The notes under the pieces are model-generated. The model had not been told where the DNA came from. It searched no databases and saw only the letters and a program-made list of their open reading frames with translations. From Bugula neritina (Eukaryota; Animalia; Bryozoa), in assembly GCA_964035545.1 (NCBI GenBank), contig OZ037765.1, forward strand, positions 22,319,504 through 22,383,503: a stretch of 64,000 nt of DNA, written 5' to 3'. Position numbers and translations under genes: made by a program. Shown here piece after piece: positions 27,050 to 39,400 of the stretch; position 1 is the first letter of the stretch, and every line of letters begins with the position of its first letter.

Positions 27050-27800
27050 TACAGTCTACATGGTCACTGCTCTAAGCAAGTAAACCAATCGGAAGTACAC
27101 AATTGAAACTGGTTGAAATATGAGGGACTATTAAAGAAACAGAAGAACCGTTATTAATCATGTGACATTAGGCATGTCTCCACTAGAAACTACACGGCAA
27201 CTGTAATGGAAGAAAAAATCAGCAGTCAGGAGTGCAGTGCAGTATATAAAAGTGTAATACACACCCACTGGCAGTGAAAATTTATCACAATAAAAATTTA
27301 AGAAGAGACATGACCAGGTGACTTCAACAATTCACTGGAACTTGCGTACTATTCATGGACTCTGGAGAAACAAAATCCCAATTGACTACTGAACTGCTTA
27401 CGGACAATGATGCATTAAAATATTGTAAAGCTGCAACATACATGAGTGATAGGACTTATGATATTGCAATAATTGATAGGCTGAATTTGAGAACAATCAT
27501 CATTGGAAGACAAGAGAAAGAAAACATGCAGGATTCAGCACTGGAGTTGACCCCCACGGTAAATAGAGCTTTTAGGATCGAATGCAGAATTGTAGGCACA
27601 ATTACTCAAATACCACTGGCATTTAGAATTAATGTGAGAAAATACACAAAATACGCATTTAGCGAATAACCTTCAACAAATCACCTGGCTAGAACCAGTA
27701 AACTGCTATTGAAACCTATACCAACACCAATAAAAATAGCATCTCCAAGCTGTGATACAACTAATGATTAACATCACTATGACTAGGATACCAAATTAAT
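27050..27800 (+). mobile_element. Decayed 3' fragment of an RLE-type (R2/R4/NeSL-like) non-LTR retrotransposon
   Basis: Frameshifted remnants occur in the canonical order: WLKY/ETE, STRNY (27179), degenerate zinc knuckle, KKRHDQVTSTIHWNL (27300), then the ORF 27355-27669 segment TDNDALK...YDIAIIDR...TIII...EKE..QDSALEL...IVGTITQIP. The last segment corresponds to the PD-(D/E)xK restriction-like endonuclease. Boundaries are approximate. Confidence 0.7.
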
Positions 27801-27911
27801 TTTAATTATAAGAAAAAAATAAACAAGATCAAGTTCAATTTGAACTTCCCAATAGTCTAAAGCTCAAAAATATAAAATGAAATTATTTAAATAGTTCAAA
27901 AAAGTTATCAT

Positions 27912-28106
27912 TGGAATATAATGCGGTTTATAGTCTTTAGCAGATAAGCTACAAGCTAACCTGAGGTGATTGGCTAACTGCCTTACAAGCATTCGGATTT
28001 CCTACCAGCTTGTACGGCTTGGATATTGGCTATTGTGAGAGTGAAAGTAAAGACTGCACGAGGGACTCTAACACAGACTGTCGAGTAAGTAGGACCTTAT
28101 ATTACA
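27912..28106 (+). repeat. 5' LTR
   Basis: tggaatataatgcgg...ccttatattaca, direct repeat of 30498-30692. Confidence 0.95.
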
Positions 28107-28124
28107 TGGCGCAGTCAGCAGGAT
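28107..28124 (+). promoter_or_regulatory. Primer binding site, probably tRNA-Ser
   Basis: TGGCGCAGTCAGCAGGAT immediately follows the 5' LTR. It begins TGG (complement of CCA) and resembles the complement of invertebrate tRNA-Ser 3' ends (tRNA identity from memory). Confidence 0.8.
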
Positions 28125-28136
28125 TGTAGACAGTCA

Positions 28137-28280
28137 ACAGTGGAGAGGGAGTGAATAGTGGAGAAGAAATAAAGAGTGGAGCAGAATCAAATAGTGGAGT
28201 TTGGAGAAGAATCAAATAGTGGAGAAAAGTGAATAGTGGAGCAGAATCAAATAATAGAGGGGAGCCAAACAGTGGAGAGT
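28137..28280 (+). repeat. Purine-rich ~18-bp tandem repeat (core AGTGGAG) in the LTR-element leader
   Basis: Ten GGAG motifs between 28142 and 28277; units such as agtggagcagaatcaaat. Confidence 0.85.
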
Positions 28281-28532
28281 AACTAAAAGTTTATTCGAGA
28301 TACATTTGACTTTGTGGAGTTTATTTTGTGTTATCAGGAGAGTAAGAGTAGTAGTTAGCGGAGTGACAGTGAAATATTAATATTATTATTTATAATTCGG
28401 TTAGAGTATTAGATTTGATAAATTCAAATTTAATATTAGGTTTAAGGATTAATTAAGGGTTATACTTATTGAGCTTTCTGGTAGTGATAATTAAAATTTT
28501 AAATTTTATATCACGCTCACATTCAGATCATA

Positions 28533-30011
28533 ATGGCAACTAACACTAGCTTCACCGACCTCAATCGGTTTCCTAAGTTAGTTTTGAGCTCTGATAATCA
28601 GAGTGATTGTTTTAAGAAATGGTTGGTAAAATACAACCTGTCAGTTCGATTAGCAACCCTTGAAATGGGTACTGAAATGCTGTCCAGTATTGCAGTAAAT
28701 AGATTTAGAGGTGAAGCTAAGTTTCTAGCTCTGCTCAATGCCATTGGAGATGAGGGTATTGATGTGTTACAATCTTTAGGATTTGATCTCGAAAGAAATG
28801 ATGATAATGCTCATAATGATGCTTTAAATTTGTTGAAAGGTCACTATGAGAAAACAGAAAATGTTCATGTGGCTTGGGTTAAGGCAGCAACTTTGTCTCA
28901 AACATGCGGCGAAGATGAGTTAGAGTATTTGCTACGTGTTGAGAAACATAGTAGAAATTTAGGATTTGTTGAAGGGGCTAATGTGGAAGACCTTAGACAA
29001 AGGTTTGCTATTAGTATGGCAGTAGTTGGTTTAAGAGATGAATATCTTAGAAGACAACTTATGCTTAATGAAAATATCACTTGGAAAGCGTTGTCTGATA
29101 TTTTGAAGACTAGGAATATTGCTAGAGAATCTGCTGCAATGGTTTCTGAGGTTAGATATAGTAGTTCTAATTTGAATAATAACTTTGCTAACATAGCTGA
29201 AGTTAGAACTAAGTCTGATAGAGTAACGAACAGAAGGTCATCTTACTATGATAATGATAGACATAAAGGTAGATATAGTTCTAGAGATAGTAGTCGAGAT
29301 TATCCTCGCCACAAGTCTCCAGACTATAGGAGTCGACATAGAGCTAGCAGTAATGGTAGTAGTAGCAGTTCAGACAGTTTATGTTATGTTTGTCATAAAC
29401 CTGAGCATGTTGCTAGGAATTGTCCGAAAATAAGATGTTATGCATGTGGAAAACATGCCCACATAGCAAGAGACTGTAGAATGCGTAGGTCTTACAAGGA
29501 CAAAGATTACTCTAGTAGAAGTAACTATAGAAGTCAAAGGAGTAGTAGCTCAGATAGAGAATGGTCAGTGGATAGTAAAGATAGTTCTTCCTGGAGATCA
29601 CCTAGAACTAGAGCTGTCAGCTCTAGTAAGGTTAGATTTATTGATAGTGAACCATACGATAGAGCCGAAACATGGAAACAGAATCTTAGTGTTAATGATA
29701 GAAATATTGAGTTTGTTTTAGATACTGGTGCAGATGTGTCTACAATTACTGAAGACACAAGTAAAACATTAGCACTTAAGCTTCACAAAAGTGATAGAGT
29801 TTTGAAGAGTGCCGACAACTCCCAGCTCTCAGTGTTAGGCAAAGCTGAGGTTGTTTTAGAAAGCAAGTTCAAGAAAACAGTAACTAACCTGTATGTTATT
29901 AAAGGTTCTAAGTCTAATATACTGGGTTTGAAGGAATTGAAGAACCATAGTCTGTTAACTGTAGTTAGCACTGAGGCTCAGTTGGTTTCTTGGAGAAATA
30001 CATTGAAGTAG
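28533..30011 (+). CDS. gag: Gag-aspartic protease polyprotein (492 aa)
   Basis: Intact ORF with a capsid-like N-terminal half, two CCHC knuckles (CYVCHKPEHVARNC, CYACGKHAHIARDC), RS-rich linkers and a retropepsin (FVLDTGADVS...NILG). It stops about 25 aa after the protease. Confidence 0.92.
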   Translation: MATNTSFTDLNRFPKLVLSSDNQSDCFKKWLVKYNLSVRLATLEMGTEMLSSIAVNRFRGEAKFLALLNAIGDEGIDVLQSLGFDLERNDDNAHNDALNLLKGHYEKTENVHVAWVKAATLSQTCGEDELEYLLRVEKHSRNLGFVEGANVEDLRQRFAISMAVVGLRDEYLRRQLMLNENITWKALSDILKTRNIARESAAMVSEVRYSSSNLNNNFANIAEVRTKSDRVTNRRSSYYDNDRHKGRYSSRDSSRDYPRHKSPDYRSRHRASSNGSSSSSDSLCYVCHKPEHVARNCPKIRCYACGKHAHIARDCRMRRSYKDKDYSSRSNYRSQRSSSSDREWSVDSKDSSSWRSPRTRAVSSSKVRFIDSEPYDRAETWKQNLSVNDRNIEFVLDTGADVSTITEDTSKTLALKLHKSDRVLKSADNSQLSVLGKAEVVLESKFKKTVTNLYVIKGSKSNILGLKELKNHSLLTVVSTEAQLVSWRNTLK

Positions 30012-30100
30012 CAGTAGTGACTTCTAGCACTTAGTTATAGCTAGGGAAATTACCAGTGGGTGACCTAGGTCAAACACCTGGTAAAGCGGATGCGCAGGAA

Positions 30101-30268
30101 GTCCACCTTGGTGGCACAGTATTAGCCCACCCTGGTGGTGCTAAAGATGATCACTTCGGTGATCAAGTTCACGACCACTCTGGTGGTCAGGTTATTGTTC
30201 ACTCCGGTGGTCAGGCTAAAGTCCACTTCGGTGGCAATTTTGGGAACCACTTTGGTGGTAAACCAAAT
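30101..30268 (+). repeat. Seven 24-bp tandem units, each with a CAC-YYYG-GTG hairpin, in the LTR-element trailer
   Basis: Units start at 30101, 30125, 30149, 30173, 30197, 30221 and 30245, with no indels. Confidence 0.88.
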
Positions 30269-30484
30269 TGTGTACTGTACATAGAGGTTGGTATTTTGTG
30301 TTATCAGCCTAACTGGTATTTTGGTGTTGCTGCTCAGCCTGACAAACCACTCAGTTCCATGTGTTACTTTATACTGCTAAATTCCTCAAAGGGGAGCATG
30401 GAATATTATGTACTCAATTCCATGTTTTGCTTTCTATTAAATCCCCAAAAGGGGAGCATGGAATATTAAGTGGTTCATCTCTAT

Positions 30485-30497
30485 AAAAGGGAGGGCA
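30485..30497 (+). promoter_or_regulatory. Polypurine tract
   Basis: aaaagggagggca directly abuts the 3' LTR. Confidence 0.85.
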
Positions 30498-30692
30498 TGG
30501 AATATAATGCGGTTTATAGTCTTTAGCAGATAAGCTACAAGCTAACCTGAGGTGATTGGCTAACTGCCTTACAAGCATTCGGATTTCCTACCAGCTTGTA
30601 CGGCTTGGATATTGGCTATTGTGAGAGTGAAAGTAAAGACTGCACGAGGGACTCTAACACAGACTGTCGAGTAAGTAGGACCTTATATTACA
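30498..30692 (+). repeat. 3' LTR
   Basis: Identical to 27912-28106, preceded by the PPT and followed by TSD ATCAT. Confidence 0.95.
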
Positions 30693-30697
30693 ATCAT

Positions 30698-33421: not shown

Positions 33422-36400
33422 TTAAACATCAGCAGTTTCTCCTTGCGTAAGAGCAGCCAATAGATTATCTTTTGTTCGTACAAACAGTTTGCCTTTGACC
33501 CAAGGGTTTTGCAAATGTAACAGCCTGTAGTCATCTCTGAGCACTCTTTCTCTTGGGCCAATCACAGCAACAAGACAGAAATTCTGCAGCTGTGAGTCAA
33601 CATAAGTAGGGCCGCCTAATCCTTTCCGAATTACTTCCTTGTTTAGCTGCATAATAACCAAATCGATGACCTCTCGGGAGGTAGTCTTTGGTGTTACATG
33701 CAGCATGACGCTAGTTCCTCTTGTAAGTCCACTCTCATAGGCTGCGTACACTCTTAAAATTCCAGGTTTGGGTTGCTCGTGTATTACAGACGCTTTGTTG
33801 GAACATTCTTGTTCGGAGTCGTGTCCATTGTTATTATTTGTGTTACTTTGCATTTGTGCTGCCGGGTAGTTAAAAATAGGGAGAGGTTTATCGCTTCCAG
33901 TGCTGCCTCCTAATGATATTTTATCGCTGTGGTAACCTTCATCCAGGTTCTTGCCCACATAATCTCCAAAACCCTTAGAGTTTGATGATTGTTCTGCAAT
34001 AGAGTTACTGAGTTGAGATATTTTCAAGCCAGGAGTTGTCCCATCTCTGCCTCGTGCATATGAAATAGCATCTGCTAACCATCTAGTTGATTTCCACACA
34101 TCTTCAAGTTGATGGTGATATGTTCTAGCAGATTCTACTAGTTTCCTGCTGCTATCTATCTCTTCATTAGAAAAAGCCTAAAAATTAAACATATAAATAT
34201 TTTTGCTTGCAGTACATAATTGTCTAGTCTACCATCAGTTTTCATAAAACATGACACATTTTATTTCAAGCATACTAAAAGTGGTTTATCAAGTACAGAG
34301 TTGAAGCTCATAGCGTTAAATGAAGTGAATACATACCTCTCTCTGAAGCTGCTGAGCCAGAACAAGCTGAGAGTCTATCAAACATGCCGACTTGCAGAAC
34401 TCACTAATGAACTCTCCCTGGTACGTCTGCAGGTGTATCATCTCAAAGGCTCTGATAGGTATTTCCATATACTCTGAGCTGGAGCCAGAGGCAGCTGCTG
34501 AATCTACAAGACAATACAAATAATTATTTACATAATAATGTATAATAATAATTTGTGTATAGTATAATAATGATAATAAGAGTATAGTGATTTATATTAT
34601 ATATAACTCATGCAAGTTCATAGTCACTATCCCTTTGAGAACCCAATACTAATGGAAAGGTCTTTTTAAGGCAGGCTAAAAACTTGGTTTTCTATTGTGG
34701 CACATGAGCAACTATGACTGGATGCTTTTCCTAACATTACTGCCAGTGTTCGGGAACCACTGACCTCGTGTTTACTAGGCCAGAGCTCTAACCACTACAG
34801 CACAGCTGCTCCAAGTTTATATTATATACCTGTTAATATCACATGTTAAAAAACACACTACACAGTACACATATGACCGCATGATGCTTATTAATGCTTG
34901 TGTATATGTCACCCATTGTTACAAACTAAAATGCTGTTTTACTAGCAGACATCTTTAGGTTCGAGACCATTTTATTTTTTAAAAAGATAACCTACCATTA
35001 GCCTGAGTCTTGACATTACACACCAGCTCTCTGGGGGGCATAAGTAAGAGAAATGATACAGCCTCAGAGAATTCTAGCACTTCCACATCATACACACGGT
35101 GATCACCAAGTTGCTGAGGTGAAAGTTCTAAGAAAGAATAAAATAATCCTAATATGTAAACAAAATTATATAATAAAAATTATAGTTTAACATTGATTCA
35201 ATGTTTCAAAGCTTATTATTACACATAAATGTTTCAGCAACCTGCTTCCCAAATTTTCTGCTAACTCAGCTTGAAAAGTTTTCAATGCCAAAAAATTTAT
35301 AAAAAAACTTTTTTATGTATGTCTAACAGGTGACAAAAAATATTTAAAACAGAAAAATTTACCTAATTTATTCGCCAACTTCTTCACAGATTTGACCAAC
35401 TGTTTTTTAAAGAGGAGTACATCAGGTGAATCTGGTTTAACTTTGCCACGAGAAAGATCAAGTATAGATTTCCACTCAGGCCTTGAGACATTGGGACAGT
35501 CTCGGATCTTGATATATGGCAACACACTGGGGTTGCTTTCCGGAGCAAGCACTCTCACCGACTCTGTGTTAAACTTTATGTTCAGGTAGCCCAAGTATAA
35601 TCCTTTAGACAGCGGTTTCCTGCTCACTTGGTTGAAAAAAATCATCTCCTACAAAAAAGCAGCATATTTTAAACTTGTTCCAAAAAATTAAAAAAAAAAT
35701 CAAATGTTAATTTATAAGCTATAATGCTATGGTTATATATGTAAAATTATGCAAAAATATTTGTATATTGTGTATAGGAATTTAAAATGTTGCTTTGACA
35801 TGACCGGTCAGTTTATCACTTGTACTTATAATATTGATTCACAGTATTTCTGTCAACACTAGAATTTTACAGGACATATCAGATCGAACAAGTTGTACCC
35901 TGTTTAATATAACTTGATAGTAGTCTACCAAAGGCGAGATTTATCAATTTCATTGAACTGTGACACTTACGTTGAGCATAGATAGTAGAGGGTCAGAAGG
36001 CTGAGAATTTTTCATGAGTTTGTTATGGGATTGCCATTTCACAGCACTGGTGATGTTTCCCATTTGCTTTGGGTCAGTCATGTGGTTTACAACTGCTATT
36101 ACTGCACTGCCATTGCCATCATAAATTGGTTTATAAAACAAGTGGCCCAGTTCTTGCATGCCGATCAACTCCTAAATAGACAAACATATTCACTCTGCTA
36201 CATGTAAATTAGCTATTAGCATTACATCACCTGAGTATGATCATAGAGGAAAACTTAGTACAGCACCAAAAGGTGGGGTTGAGTCATTATGACTTGAATT
36301 AACATTGGAATTTTGCATAGAATTCTAATGACTAACTCTGAGCATTGGCTTAACAAAGATTCAAGTTGATAGGTGAATGATATTAAAAAGGTGCTCATTA

Positions 36401-39400
36401 TCTTCACCATAAAGAAAGGATAGCCAGTGCTAATAACAATGATCAAATTCTTTTGTTAGGTTTTTAAAAAATATAGATAATATCTCTAACCTGCATCTGA
36501 AGGACAGCTGTGAGCAATTGATTTTTAAGCTGCATGCTGCTCAACTCCAACTTCTCCAAGTCCTGTTTCACTTGTCTAGCCGTGTCCCAGGATGATGTCA
36601 ACACTTTCATTAGCCAATCAAATTCCGACTGCAAAGAATGGCTATTATAGTTCTCGTCCACTTCAATGATGGGGAGGTTGTCCTCTGTCGTTACCAAGAC
36701 TTTATCTTCGTTGAAGCAGATAGACACCAAATAAACGCCCCTAGTGTGGTAAAACAATTGGATATAGAATTCATTGTTAGCCTCCCTTATTTTGTACAGT
36801 ATTTAATGTCTGTAAAAATATGAAGCCTATTCCATTAGTTTTTATACAGTGTGAAAATTGGATTTAAATATAAACTCACCTCTTGAGACTTTTTTGAAAC
36901 TTAAAAGATGATGAGAAGAGCCCCCTCAACCCCCTCCGAGAAGACTTCCTGTTGCTTGGTGGAGACTCCATGCACTGCTGACCATTACTGGGAGACGAGT
37001 CTTCGCTAGGATCATGTGCAGGATTTCTACTCTTTTTAAAGTTAGTTATAATTTGATTTAATTTATGAAGTTTGAAGCTGTTTGCTCTGGACTCTAAGTT
37101 TTCAGCACCTCGCCAACCTAAAATCATTATCAGTTTTACCTGAAAAGTCTGTTCAATCATGAAACAGTTTTGTAGCATCAAGTGTATTAACTTTACCTAT
37201 TTTATTATAGCTTCTGCTTATAGCATCTCATGCGAGTTTAGCAGATTAGCAAGACAGGATGTCAAATATTTGTTTGCATTATTAAACAAATTATCTGTTG
37301 GGAAGGGATGTTTAACAAGCATTGATTTGCATGCTAATATATCTCCACACTGACTGATCAACATCAGTTTCATAAAAGAGATCAATACAACAACTGGTAC
37401 CTACACTATAAGCTGATCAAATTTCCAGAAACTGTAGACAATGCTTTAAATTTACAACAAAACCTGCTAGGAGCAATGTTAAGGCAATACATTTTGTGGA
37501 CGGTAAACCAAGGTGGGCAAGTTGCTAGTATAATAAAACAATAGTAAGCTGCAAATTCAAATAAGGGTTGGTAAGCATTGGAGTCACCTGTCTTAAAAGT
37601 GAATGAAATTTCAAGTCAAAACCTCACGACACATTACCTTTCAACAATACATTTCACTGATTACGATCAGGAATTTACTTTGTACAAAAACATGTTTACT
37701 TGTCCTATTATAAAAAGACATTGTAGTTTCCAATAGTGAATATTTTTTCTCATATATTATATGATGCATATTAATTGCCCAAATCTGTTGCCCCCAGTGG
37801 TCTTTTGTAATAAGAAAATGGTTCATTGAGTAACATAAGTTATTTGAAGATAAGAATCTCAAATGTTTGTGTTTGAGCAGAGTTGAAATGTCCAACATTT
37901 TCATCATTTTATAAAAGTTTATGGCACTGAGCCAAGTTTCTTCCAAAACTTACTAGATGGAATAGCATAAAGTGGATCAGAATAAGCTGGCCGGCCAAAT
38001 CCTTTCACATTCCAAGCGGTCACTCGGACAAAATAGGGTGTACCACACTCTAAACCAGTTATATTGTGATGAAGATTATGCATTTCATTAATTATTACTT
38101 CTCCAGCCAACGGTCTAAAGTTCTGAGCTTGGCTCCATTCAACTAAAAGTATTAAAATGTTAGTGTAAGTTTCATAGTAACTGGAATATATCTAATTTAA
38201 ATTGAATTGTGACAATAAAAAGCTTTACCTAACGTGTAATTTGTCCAAAGTGACCCAAAACACTCAATATTTAGATGCTGTATGGTACATAATTTACTGG
38301 TTTTGCAAGTGTTTTCTGTAGAGAAGCTACGTACCCTTGTATCTAGAAACAATGGCGCTGTTATTCTCTTCTGGAGTATCGAACCCAACAGAGATAGAAG
38401 AGTCACTGGTCACAGATAACTTTACATTCTGAGGTTGGCCTGGAAGCCCTGGAGGAAACAGCAGTTATATGTTTAGATATAATCTTGATAAACCACATGA
38501 CAGAAGTTACAGTTGGAAAACTGAAAACAATTGAAGACATCCACCAATCACTCAAACATTATGAGTATTACAGATGACAATCCTTTGTGTGAGTCTCCTA
38601 ATTAACATCAGACAAAAATATCACATGTCAATGTAAATCTGTCTTGAATGTTAATGCAAATAACAGAAGAGGCTAGAAATAAATATTAGTACCAGTTTGT
38701 ATATTATAATGATGTATTGCACTATGTGCTGTCTATTTTGTAATTCAAATTTATAGAAGTTCTTGGTAAATAACTGTTTTTCTTTGATCCTGTTTTAATC
38801 CAGACTATTAAGTTGCAATAACTAAGTAGCAATCAACAAAGCTAAAGATGAATTATATCTATTACCGTATTTATGTAGCAAATTAACAATTTAATTTGTT
38901 ATTAACAAGTCTGTCAAAATTACATAAATCATTGATAGAGTAAATATAAATAAATTTATGACCAGCTGAGTTGTCAACTAAATAATTGGATTGTTACATA
39001 AGAGCAGAAGCCTCTAGAGCTGCTCCTGTGCTAATTGGTGTTTATGTGAATTTAATAACTTTGATTATAGTCAGAGTGATGCTTACCAGTTTCATCATAT
39101 CCAGATCTCATTCTTCTAAAGAGCCTATGCTTGAACTCCCATTGACTAATTTTTTTCTCATCCTACAAAATATTTTTTCTCTACTTGTAGTCATTGAAGT
39201 GAGCAAATTAGAATAGTGAATAGTAAATTATGATAATTGGGCTATGCTCTTACCTTAGAAAAGACCTCAGATTAAAAAATTGCAACTAGTTATTAAAATA
39301 AGACAAACAAAGTTTGTAGTATTCCGATGAAGCCCAATTGAAGTGATTTTGGATTTCTCACAAGTAGGGTTTGGGCTCACTCTTATCTGGAATGGTGTGA

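What the first reader, a model, noticed from the sequence alone, without database searches (positions are those of the whole stretch)
30101..30268. Array of seven evenly spaced C(YYYG)G tetraloop hairpins with covariation in the element's 3' trailer
Seen: every 24 nt there is a stem-loop: ccac-CTTG-gtgg, ccac-CCTG-gtgg, gatcac-TTCG-gtgatc, gaccac-TCTG-gtggtc, tcac-TCCG-gtgg, ccac-TTCG-gtgg, accac-TTTG-gtggt. Unit 3 shows a compensatory change (C-G to T-A) and unit 5 a G-U wobble, while the spacers diverge freely at constant length. Known: C(UUCG)G/UNCG are exceptionally stable tetraloops. Inference: a multivalent RNA signal resembling a natural MS2-type array, for packaging, export or recruitment of helper Pol, located where pol would be. 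The alternative is a coding xHxGG repeat in the GTG-initiated ORF 30056-30469.
Basis: partly seen in the sequence, partly recalled or inferred. Interest (0 to 1): 0.8.

Follow-up and report, generated by a model that had tools for sequence, protein, structure and literature searches.

The report
Palindrome ladder kept by parasitic retrotransposon
A young jumping gene of a marine invertebrate that lacks its own copying enzymes carries seven evenly spaced short palindromes, shared with a larger relative, which likely act as an RNA recognition signal rather than as protein code or as extra-stable tetraloops.

Summary
The array is real: YCAC-YYYG-GTGR occurs 7 times at exactly 24 nt (30103-30258; 0.29 expected). 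It lies in a young 2.8-kb LTR element (identical LTRs, 5-bp TSD) that encodes Gag-protease only; its closest named relatives are from Bugula neritina. A related family B, probably the helper, has the same array (6 units) inside a separate ~200-aa ORF. The window element kept only the array part of that ORF: no ATG precedes it, and sister copies carry a frameshift. Between the families, paired positions show 0/40 visible differences against 15/68 elsewhere (third codon positions 0/15 vs 8/21), while the Gly codon changes in the loop. That favours constraint on the nucleotide palindrome over the peptide. Best reading: an RNA signal overprinted on a disordered ORF and retained to use the helper's machinery (0.5). 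Function is untested, and passive carry-over remains possible.

The parts
27907..27911 (+). Target-site duplication, left copy (ATCAT); right copy 30693-30697
   Evidence: read directly
27912..28106 (+). 5' LTR, 195 nt, TG...CA, 100% identical to the 3' LTR
28107..28124 (+). Primer-binding site directly after the LTR (starts TGG); tRNA-Ser match recalled, not tested
   Evidence: a family-B-type contig shares sequence up to 28124 and then differs until 28527 (joint in X9); no tRNA gene in window
28139..28277 (+). 5' UTR array of 7 exact AGTGGAG motifs about 18 nt apart, predicted unstructured
   Evidence: folding z +1.3 to +1.6
28533..30011 (+). Gag-protease ORF, 492 aa: two CCHC knuckles (about 29382-29486), aspartyl protease (about 29685-29942); no RT, RNase H or integrase
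   Evidence: Pfam; PDB NC matches; tblastn with a 1474-aa relative's Pol part finds nothing in the window
30044..30262 (+). Segment homologous to the middle of family B's ~200-aa 3' ORF; ORF start lost here
   Evidence: tblastn 30044-30211, 76-79% aa identity to P0043/P0037/P0016; family-B contigs align only 30044-30210 with 25-26 differences; last unit matched by protein alignment
30103..30258 (+). The array: seven 12-nt interrupted palindromes YCAC-YYYG-GTGR at a 24-nt period
30388..30497 (+). Three copies of polypurine tract followed by the first LTR bases (30388, 30447, 30485); the last abuts the 3' LTR
30498..30692 (+). 3' LTR, 195 nt

Best explanation
The array is a row of seven 12-nt interrupted palindromes in a Gag-protease-only LTR retrotransposon, and it likely works as a cis-acting RNA signal that lets this element's RNA enter particles carrying a helper element's enzymes. 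Shown: the element is a young multi-copy insertion without RT or integrase; a related family B carries six units of the same array inside a ~200-aa ORF; this element keeps only that piece; stems are conserved where loops and spacers change. Inferred: family B is the autonomous helper; the repeat arose by 24-nt tandem duplication inside a disordered part of B's ORF and was then held by selection on pairing. Predicted: because the units are self-complementary and equally spaced, they can switch between short hairpins (as the RNA is made), one in-register rod, and a ladder between two RNAs, so they could be bound by Gag nucleocapsid and could pair parasite RNA with helper RNA. Within this reading I put packaging/dimerization at about 60% and nuclear export at about 35%.
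For: Family A vs B, units 1-5: 0 of 40 paired positions differ vs 15 of 68 others (p=0.0009; 1/40, p=0.005, if 30199 is counted; 0/40 vs 11/58, p=0.002, without the CpG-type loop dinucleotide); third codon positions only 0/15 vs 8/21 (p=0.011) (from rows). All copies pooled: variable sites 3/56 stem, 8/28 loop, 13/72 spacer. Between units of this copy the paired synonymous columns are invariant (CAC 7/7, GGT 7/7; gag uses CAC 4 of 13 and GGT 10 of 17) while unpaired synonymous columns vary (0/14 vs 5/14, p=0.04). Peptide broken with stem intact: Gly to Ser at 30158, Gly to Arg at 30182; 9 of 9 family-B proteins that span units 3-4 have Ser there. One-base insertion after 30087 in X2, X4, X12; in X4 it is on the only family-A contig listed over that site. 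High-depth length changes inside the array are whole units (-24 in X8 and X3; +96 joint in X2). The segment is about three times less diverged at synonymous sites between families (about 0.19) than gag (about 0.63, estimated from 84 DNA and about 25 protein differences). Windows over the array give the lowest folding z in the element (-4.05; 28 windows; -3.72). The repeat region of B's ORF is predicted disordered. MFE pairs units 1-7, 2-6, 3-5 in register.
Against: No function tested. Four of the 26 family-B differences in X12 were not shown; if two fell on paired third positions the test drops to p=0.14; without the CpG-type column p=0.043; counting clustered changes as single events p=0.039. 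Host CpG o/e is 0.37 and 6 of 8 variable loop sites lie in the CpG-type dinucleotide, so loop variability alone is not evidence (loop positions 1-2 vs stem p=0.26). Most stem positions are also His and Gly codon positions of B's ORF. Low synonymous divergence may reflect a recent template switch rather than constraint. Three family-B proteins (P0041, P0045, P0046) lack the whole array by an in-frame deletion. Individual B proteins carry changes that must break stems (for example HLDG, HLVG, HLGS, QSGG). A homodimer of the array gains only -6.5 kcal/mol, no better than shuffles (-10.2 +/- 2.9; 38 of 40 as good). Both strands fold better than shuffles, so RNA versus DNA level is not resolved. 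Known dimerization palindromes lie near the 5' end (PMC6844567).
Confidence: 0.5

Rival explanations
1. Coding by-product carried passively. The repeat is an 8-residue His-x-Gly-Gly tandem repeat in family B's 3' ORF; CAC and GGT-GG codons are complementary by accident; the pol-less element inherited the piece recently by deletion or template switch, and CpG decay explains the loop changes.
For: The repeat is in frame in a ~200-aa ORF in several copies; period is a multiple of 3; variable sites lean to third positions (11 vs 7 and 6); low A-B divergence fits recent exchange; array-less ORF copies exist; CpG depletion.
Against: Paired synonymous sites are invariant within and between families while unpaired ones change; spacers are near saturation (34%) yet the 12-mer is intact; the first Gly is not conserved; x is limited to pyrimidine-only codons for unlike residues (L, P, F, S); the region is predicted disordered.
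Confidence: 0.27
2. DNA-level array. The palindrome YCAC-N4-GTGR is a repeated binding site for a dimeric host protein and acts as enhancer or insulator of the integrated element, like the gypsy 5' UTR repeat.
For: The core is nearly sequence-invariant, not just complementary; repeats in retrotransposon UTRs can be enhancers or insulators (PMC3286476, passages read); strand of action not fixed by folding.
Against: 24 bp is not a whole number of helical turns; both halves of unit 3 change together and three units extend their stems with different pairs; the centre is strongly strand-asymmetric (21 of 21 pyrimidines).
Confidence: 0.13
3. One reading: seven independent extra-stable tetraloop hairpins forming an MS2-like loop-recognition array.
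For: All seven hairpins dominate if pairing is limited to 25-nt span (0.83-1.0); this copy has G at loop position 4 in 7 of 7.
Against: 3 of 7 UNCG; loop position 4 is A or C in other copies; four stems are only 4 bp (-2.6 to -3.9 kcal/mol); the ensemble prefers cross-unit pairing from a 40-nt span upward; no Rfam match.
Confidence: 0.1

Closest known systems
Mag-lineage Ty3/gypsy elements (PMC3286476, passages and Table 1 read)
   Same: Short LTRs (about 140-300 nt), mostly 5-bp TSD, PBS directly after the LTR, some members with UTR tandem repeats.
   Different: No RT here, so lineage cannot be placed on a tree; repeats described there are in the 5' UTR and not reported as palindrome arrays in the passages seen.
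TR-GAG and other non-autonomous LTR elements (PMC8704663, PMC13570524, passages read)
   Same: Two LTRs, PBS, PPT, one Gag ORF, dependence on an autonomous relative.
   Different: Animal host; Gag is fused in frame to an intact-looking protease; keeps an internal piece of the relative's extra ORF.
Ty1 PAL1/PAL2 dimerization palindromes (PMC6844567, passages read)
   Same: Self-complementary sequence that forms a hairpin in the monomer and an extended duplex in the dimer; one Ty1 palindrome lies in a coding region.
   Different: Here 6-7 units in a phased 3' array rather than a pair in the 5' UTR; no dimer advantage in silico; untested.
RNA export elements RTE (IAP) and MTE (MusD) (PMC12786077, one passage read); CERV of Cer1 (PMC10309623, abstract only)
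   Same: Structured cis RNA in an LTR element; an extra element-encoded protein can serve export.
   Different: No sequence or Rfam match; a simple periodic palindrome, not a pseudoknotted fold; no link of family B's ORF to CERV shown.
Tandem repeats near the PPT of plant and mosquito LTR elements (10.1101/2021.07.15.452536 and PMC3286476, passages read)
   Same: Short tandem repeats of varying unit number in the 3' region; function debated.
   Different: Conserved palindromic cores with diverged spacers, overlapping an ORF in the parent family.

Membership tests
LTR retrotransposon insertion | Two LTRs with TG...CA ends, TSD, PBS, PPT | tested here: met
Mag lineage (Ty3/gypsy) | RT/IN phylogeny within Mag | not testable with these tools
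   element has no RT; family-B pol not retrieved (one search gave only a 24%-identical full-length relative)
Mag lineage (Ty3/gypsy) | Short LTR, 5-bp TSD | tested here: met
   195 nt, 5 bp vs Table 1 of PMC3286476
Mag lineage (Ty3/gypsy) | PBS complementary to tRNA-Ser or -Leu | not tested
   Ser match is recalled; no host tRNA held
Gag-encoding non-autonomous element (TR-GAG-like) | Gag ORF, no RT/RNase H/integrase | tested here: met
   differs by an added protease
Gag-encoding non-autonomous element (TR-GAG-like) | Multi-copy, recent insertion | tested here: met
   identical LTRs; interior depth about 1000-1200 vs flank 140 in X1 (depth is only a rough guide)
cUNCGg tetraloop array | UNCG loop closed by C-G in each unit and conserved | tested here: not met
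   3 of 7; unit 3, 5, 6 loops change in other copies
MS2-type hairpin array | Independent hairpins with conserved loop and bulge (features recalled) | tested here: not met
   no bulge, loops vary, cross-unit pairing preferred
MS2-type hairpin array | Specific protein ligand | not testable with these tools
   needs binding assay
Retroelement dimerization palindromes (Ty1 PAL type) | Self-complementary, hairpin-duplex switch | tested here: met
   in silico only: unit duplexes -9 to -25 kcal/mol vs hairpins -3 to -9; true of any short-loop hairpin
Retroelement dimerization palindromes (Ty1 PAL type) | [quoted passage not shown] | tested here: not met
   array lies 240 nt before the 3' LTR
Retroelement dimerization palindromes (Ty1 PAL type) | Dimer favoured over monomer | tested here: inconclusive
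   gain no better than shuffles; real dimers need Gag chaperoning
RNA export elements (CTE, RTE, MTE) | Match to described family | tested here: not met
   Rfam, E<=1: two chance-level hits only
RNA export elements (CTE, RTE, MTE) | Exports unspliced RNA | not testable with these tools
   needs reporter assay

The most novel reading that the evidence does not exclude
Family B encodes an undescribed accessory protein (42-residue helix plus disordered tail) whose own coding region carries a phased palindrome ladder as its response element, a Rev/RRE-like arrangement in an invertebrate Ty3/gypsy element; the pol-less parasite dropped the protein, kept the ladder, and uses it to pair in register with helper RNA and be co-packaged with helper Pol.
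Probability: 0.1. Interest if true: 0.82.

Novelty: new variant of a known kind. Interest (0 to 1): 0.5.

Why it matters
How a non-autonomous LTR element gets its RNA into particles holding another element's reverse transcriptase is poorly understood, and dimerization and packaging signals of endogenous retroelements are much less known than retroviral ones (PMC6844567). Here parasite and likely helper differ in 5' UTR, 3' UTR and gag synonymous sites but share one 170-220-nt internal piece with a simple, countable motif, so it is a compact candidate that can be probed directly. It also exposes an extra ORF without any family match in a bryozoan Ty3/gypsy family. If the array is only a coding by-product, the locus is an ordinary deletion derivative.

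Tried and rejected
No host genome held, so no full-length copies could be aligned and no R-scape-type test run. Pattern scans for three phased units found 75 stretches in metagenome contigs and 3 in viral contigs; none of these 78 loci matched the element or its Gag-PR relatives: they are unrelated near-identical tandem repeats. Related-locus scans gave nothing usable: viral contigs (one weak 47% hit over 32 residues, ignored) and prokaryote genomes. Rfam: two hits far below cut-off. Pfam and Atlas gave no family for the 3' ORF. Search for longer proteins gave 2 distant hits and no family-B Gag-Pol (weak evidence); none of the 7 related hits among 8 joins the ORF to an integrase. Pairing of the 5' AGTGGAG array with the 3' array: duplex -72.0, 2 of 100 shuffles as good in each control, cofold gain -11.1, about 8 bp in the whole-element ensemble: suggestive only, not adopted. 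Translation of the array from gag by a -1 shift: blocked by stops at 30032 and 30038; no splice joint to this site. BLASTP did not link P0003's tail to Pol; a targeted local alignment did, weakly (7 of 2000 shuffles). Bacterial promoter/terminator scan is irrelevant to this host. Paper searches found no description of this family or of such an array; the library lacks most subscription papers and Repbase-type annotations, and no supplements were read. Earlier findings: nothing by sequence or place, one unrelated note.

Full report
What the locus is. The finding lies in a 2,781-nt LTR element, 27912-30692. The LTRs are 195 nt, 100% identical, TG...CA, flanked by the 5-bp duplication ATCAT; a primer-binding site follows the 5' LTR directly. 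The single long ORF (28533-30011) has two CCHC knuckles and an aspartyl protease. A distant relative's Pol finds no match anywhere in the window, so the element is non-autonomous. The best of 8 homologues are Bugula neritina proteins at 59-64% identity, with a Watersipora protein at 34%, so the host is probably a Bugula-type bryozoan. LTR length and TSD fit the Mag lineage as tabulated in PMC3286476; the tRNA-Ser reading of the PBS is recalled. In run X1 the interior depth is about 1000-1200 against 140 in the flank, roughly 7-8 copies, though depth is a poor copy counter. No host genome was held; I laid 7 of 21 listed runs, all as contigs.

The observation. Seven units YCAC-YYYG-GTGR stand at exactly 24-nt steps from 30103 to 30258. 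A motif-free scan finds a run of 7 phased hairpins here and at most 4 at any period elsewhere in the window. The region folds better than shuffles on both strands (z -3.72 and -2.75) and holds the lowest z of 28 windows over the element. But the seven-hairpin form is not the predicted optimum: -39.7 alone, -64.1 at best, against -71.3. The MFE pairs unit 1 with 7, 2 with 6 and 3 with 5, five pairs on each side of a 2x2 pyrimidine loop, with unit 4 at the tip. The motif is better seen as a 12-nt interrupted palindrome whose equal spacing allows in-register pairing. All seven hairpins dominate only at a 25-nt span limit, a crude proxy for co-transcriptional folding. Only 3 of 7 loops are UNCG.

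Where the array comes from. A search with the HxGG frame found 3 relatives among 15 candidates; a cluster member, P0016, extended it to an ATG-started ORF, and a full HMMER search gave 8 hits, 7 related and none longer than 201 aa. These family-B proteins (P0037 201 aa, P0043 198 aa) have six 8-residue units in the middle. P0043 (EB796_009568) and the gag P0017 (EB796_009564) both lie on a 140,640-bp contig four locus tags apart. P0003 runs on past the protease into sequence that aligns weakly with the start of Pol (7 of 2000 shuffles), and JGI contigs holding the ORF are 4.2-7.1 kb. I infer, but did not show, that family B is autonomous with the order gag, pol, extra ORF. AlphaFold gives one confident helix (residues 2-43) and no structure over the repeat (pTM 0.21, 13 sequences); Pfam and the Atlas give no family. 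The window element matches only residues 71-126 of P0043 at 30044-30211, and family-B contigs align only over 30044-30210. In this frame there are stops at 30032 and 30038 and no ATG before 30359. Its 5' UTR also differs from a family-B-type contig between 28124 and 28527.

Peptide or pairing. One search showed 40 of 52 difference rows. Pooled over copies, 3 of 56 stem, 8 of 28 loop and 13 of 72 spacer sites vary. Of the three stem changes, one keeps a wobble (30106), one shows that the unit-5 wobble is nearly private to this copy (30199; C in all contigs of four runs and 1317 of 1369 depth in X1), and one breaks a pair in a low-depth contig (30209). Taking the rows carried by the family-B contig of X12 (22 of its 26 differences visible), units 1-5 differ at 0 of 40 paired and 15 of 68 other positions, and at 0 of 15 versus 8 of 21 third codon positions (p=0.011). 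The first Gly codon begins in the loop, and it changes: Gly to Ser at 30158, Gly to Arg at 30182; all 9 family-B proteins tabulated have Ser at this place in units 3 and 4. A one-base insertion after 30087 breaks the frame upstream of the array in contigs of X2, X4 and X12; a two-base insertion after 30280 breaks it downstream in X8 and explains the different end of P0011. Unit number varies: 6 in X3, X8, P0011 and family B, 7 here, a +96 joint in X2; three indels that are not whole units occur only in low-depth contigs. Synonymous divergence between families is about 0.19 in this segment against about 0.63 in gag (estimate).

Limits. The third-position test falls to p=0.043 without the CpG-type column and to p=0.14 if two unseen differences were at paired sites; clustered changes counted as single events give p=0.039. 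The host is CpG-depleted (0.37) and 6 of 8 variable loop sites lie in the CpG-type dinucleotide. No two-sided compensatory change between copies was seen; the unit-3 T-A pair is one event, and half of it is expected by chance. Three proteins lack the whole array by an in-frame deletion (P0041, P0045, P0046), and single B proteins carry stem-breaking residues, which may be post-insertion decay. Low divergence could come from a recent template switch. A homodimer of the array is not favoured over shuffles. Nothing here separates RNA from DNA action firmly.

Mechanism. Best reading (0.5): a cis RNA signal, overprinted on a disordered stretch of family B's extra ORF, retained by the pol-less family because its RNA must enter particles with helper Pol. 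The units would form short hairpins as the RNA is made and be rearranged by Gag nucleocapsid into a rod or a ladder with a second RNA, including helper RNA, like the hairpin-to-duplex switch of Ty1 PAL1/PAL2 (PMC6844567). Export, as with RTE and MTE (PMC12786077), is the main alternative function, and the 3' position suits it (positions recalled). Rivals: coding by-product carried passively (0.27), DNA-level protein-binding array (0.13), independent tetraloop array as first proposed (0.10).

Relation to what is known. Gag-only non-autonomous elements (PMC8704663; PMC13570524) and tandem repeats in UTRs of LTR elements (PMC3286476; 10.1101/2021.07.15.452536) are described; of these papers I read passages only, and of PMC10309623 the abstract. 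Ten searches found no description of this family or of a phased palindrome array shared by helper ORF and parasite, within a library that lacks most subscription papers. I rate it a new variant of a known kind, interest 0.5: real, with moderate evidence of nucleotide-level selection and a clear test, but with untested function and weaker structural claims than first proposed.

Noticed in passing
window 28139-28277: Seven exact AGTGGAG motifs about 18 nt apart in an unstructured purine-rich 5' UTR; complementary to the CCACY arms of the 3' array (duplex better than 98 of 100 shuffles) and absent from a family-B-type contig. Could be NC-binding sites or a 5'-3' contact.
   Followed up: partly
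window 30388-30505: Polypurine tract plus the first LTR bases is present three times (60-nt and 38-nt steps), suggesting spare plus-strand priming sites; the region also folds well (z -3.3).
   Followed up: partly
P0043, P0037 (family B): A ~200-aa extra ORF with a confident 42-residue helix and disordered acidic tail, no Pfam or Atlas match; possible accessory protein of a bryozoan Ty3/gypsy family.
   Followed up: partly
P0041, P0045, P0046: Family-B ORF variants with an in-frame deletion that removes the whole array but keeps helix and tail.
   Followed up: no
window 29640-29700; P0005-P0010: Five relatives end Gag at a Val-Arg-Phe motif, while this element and the Watersipora protein P0008 read through in frame into protease and stop right after it; Gag-protease-only elements may recur in cheilostomes.
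   Followed up: no
window 27700-27941: Only X1 shows a contig joining flank to LTR; the X2 flank contig stops matching at 27893, so the insertion may be polymorphic.
   Followed up: no
window 33422-37949, minus strand: Exons of a host gene ending in a weak Ras-association domain (Pfam E=0.005; resembles wide awake/ANKFN1, recalled); the element sits about 2.7 kb past its stop.
   Followed up: no
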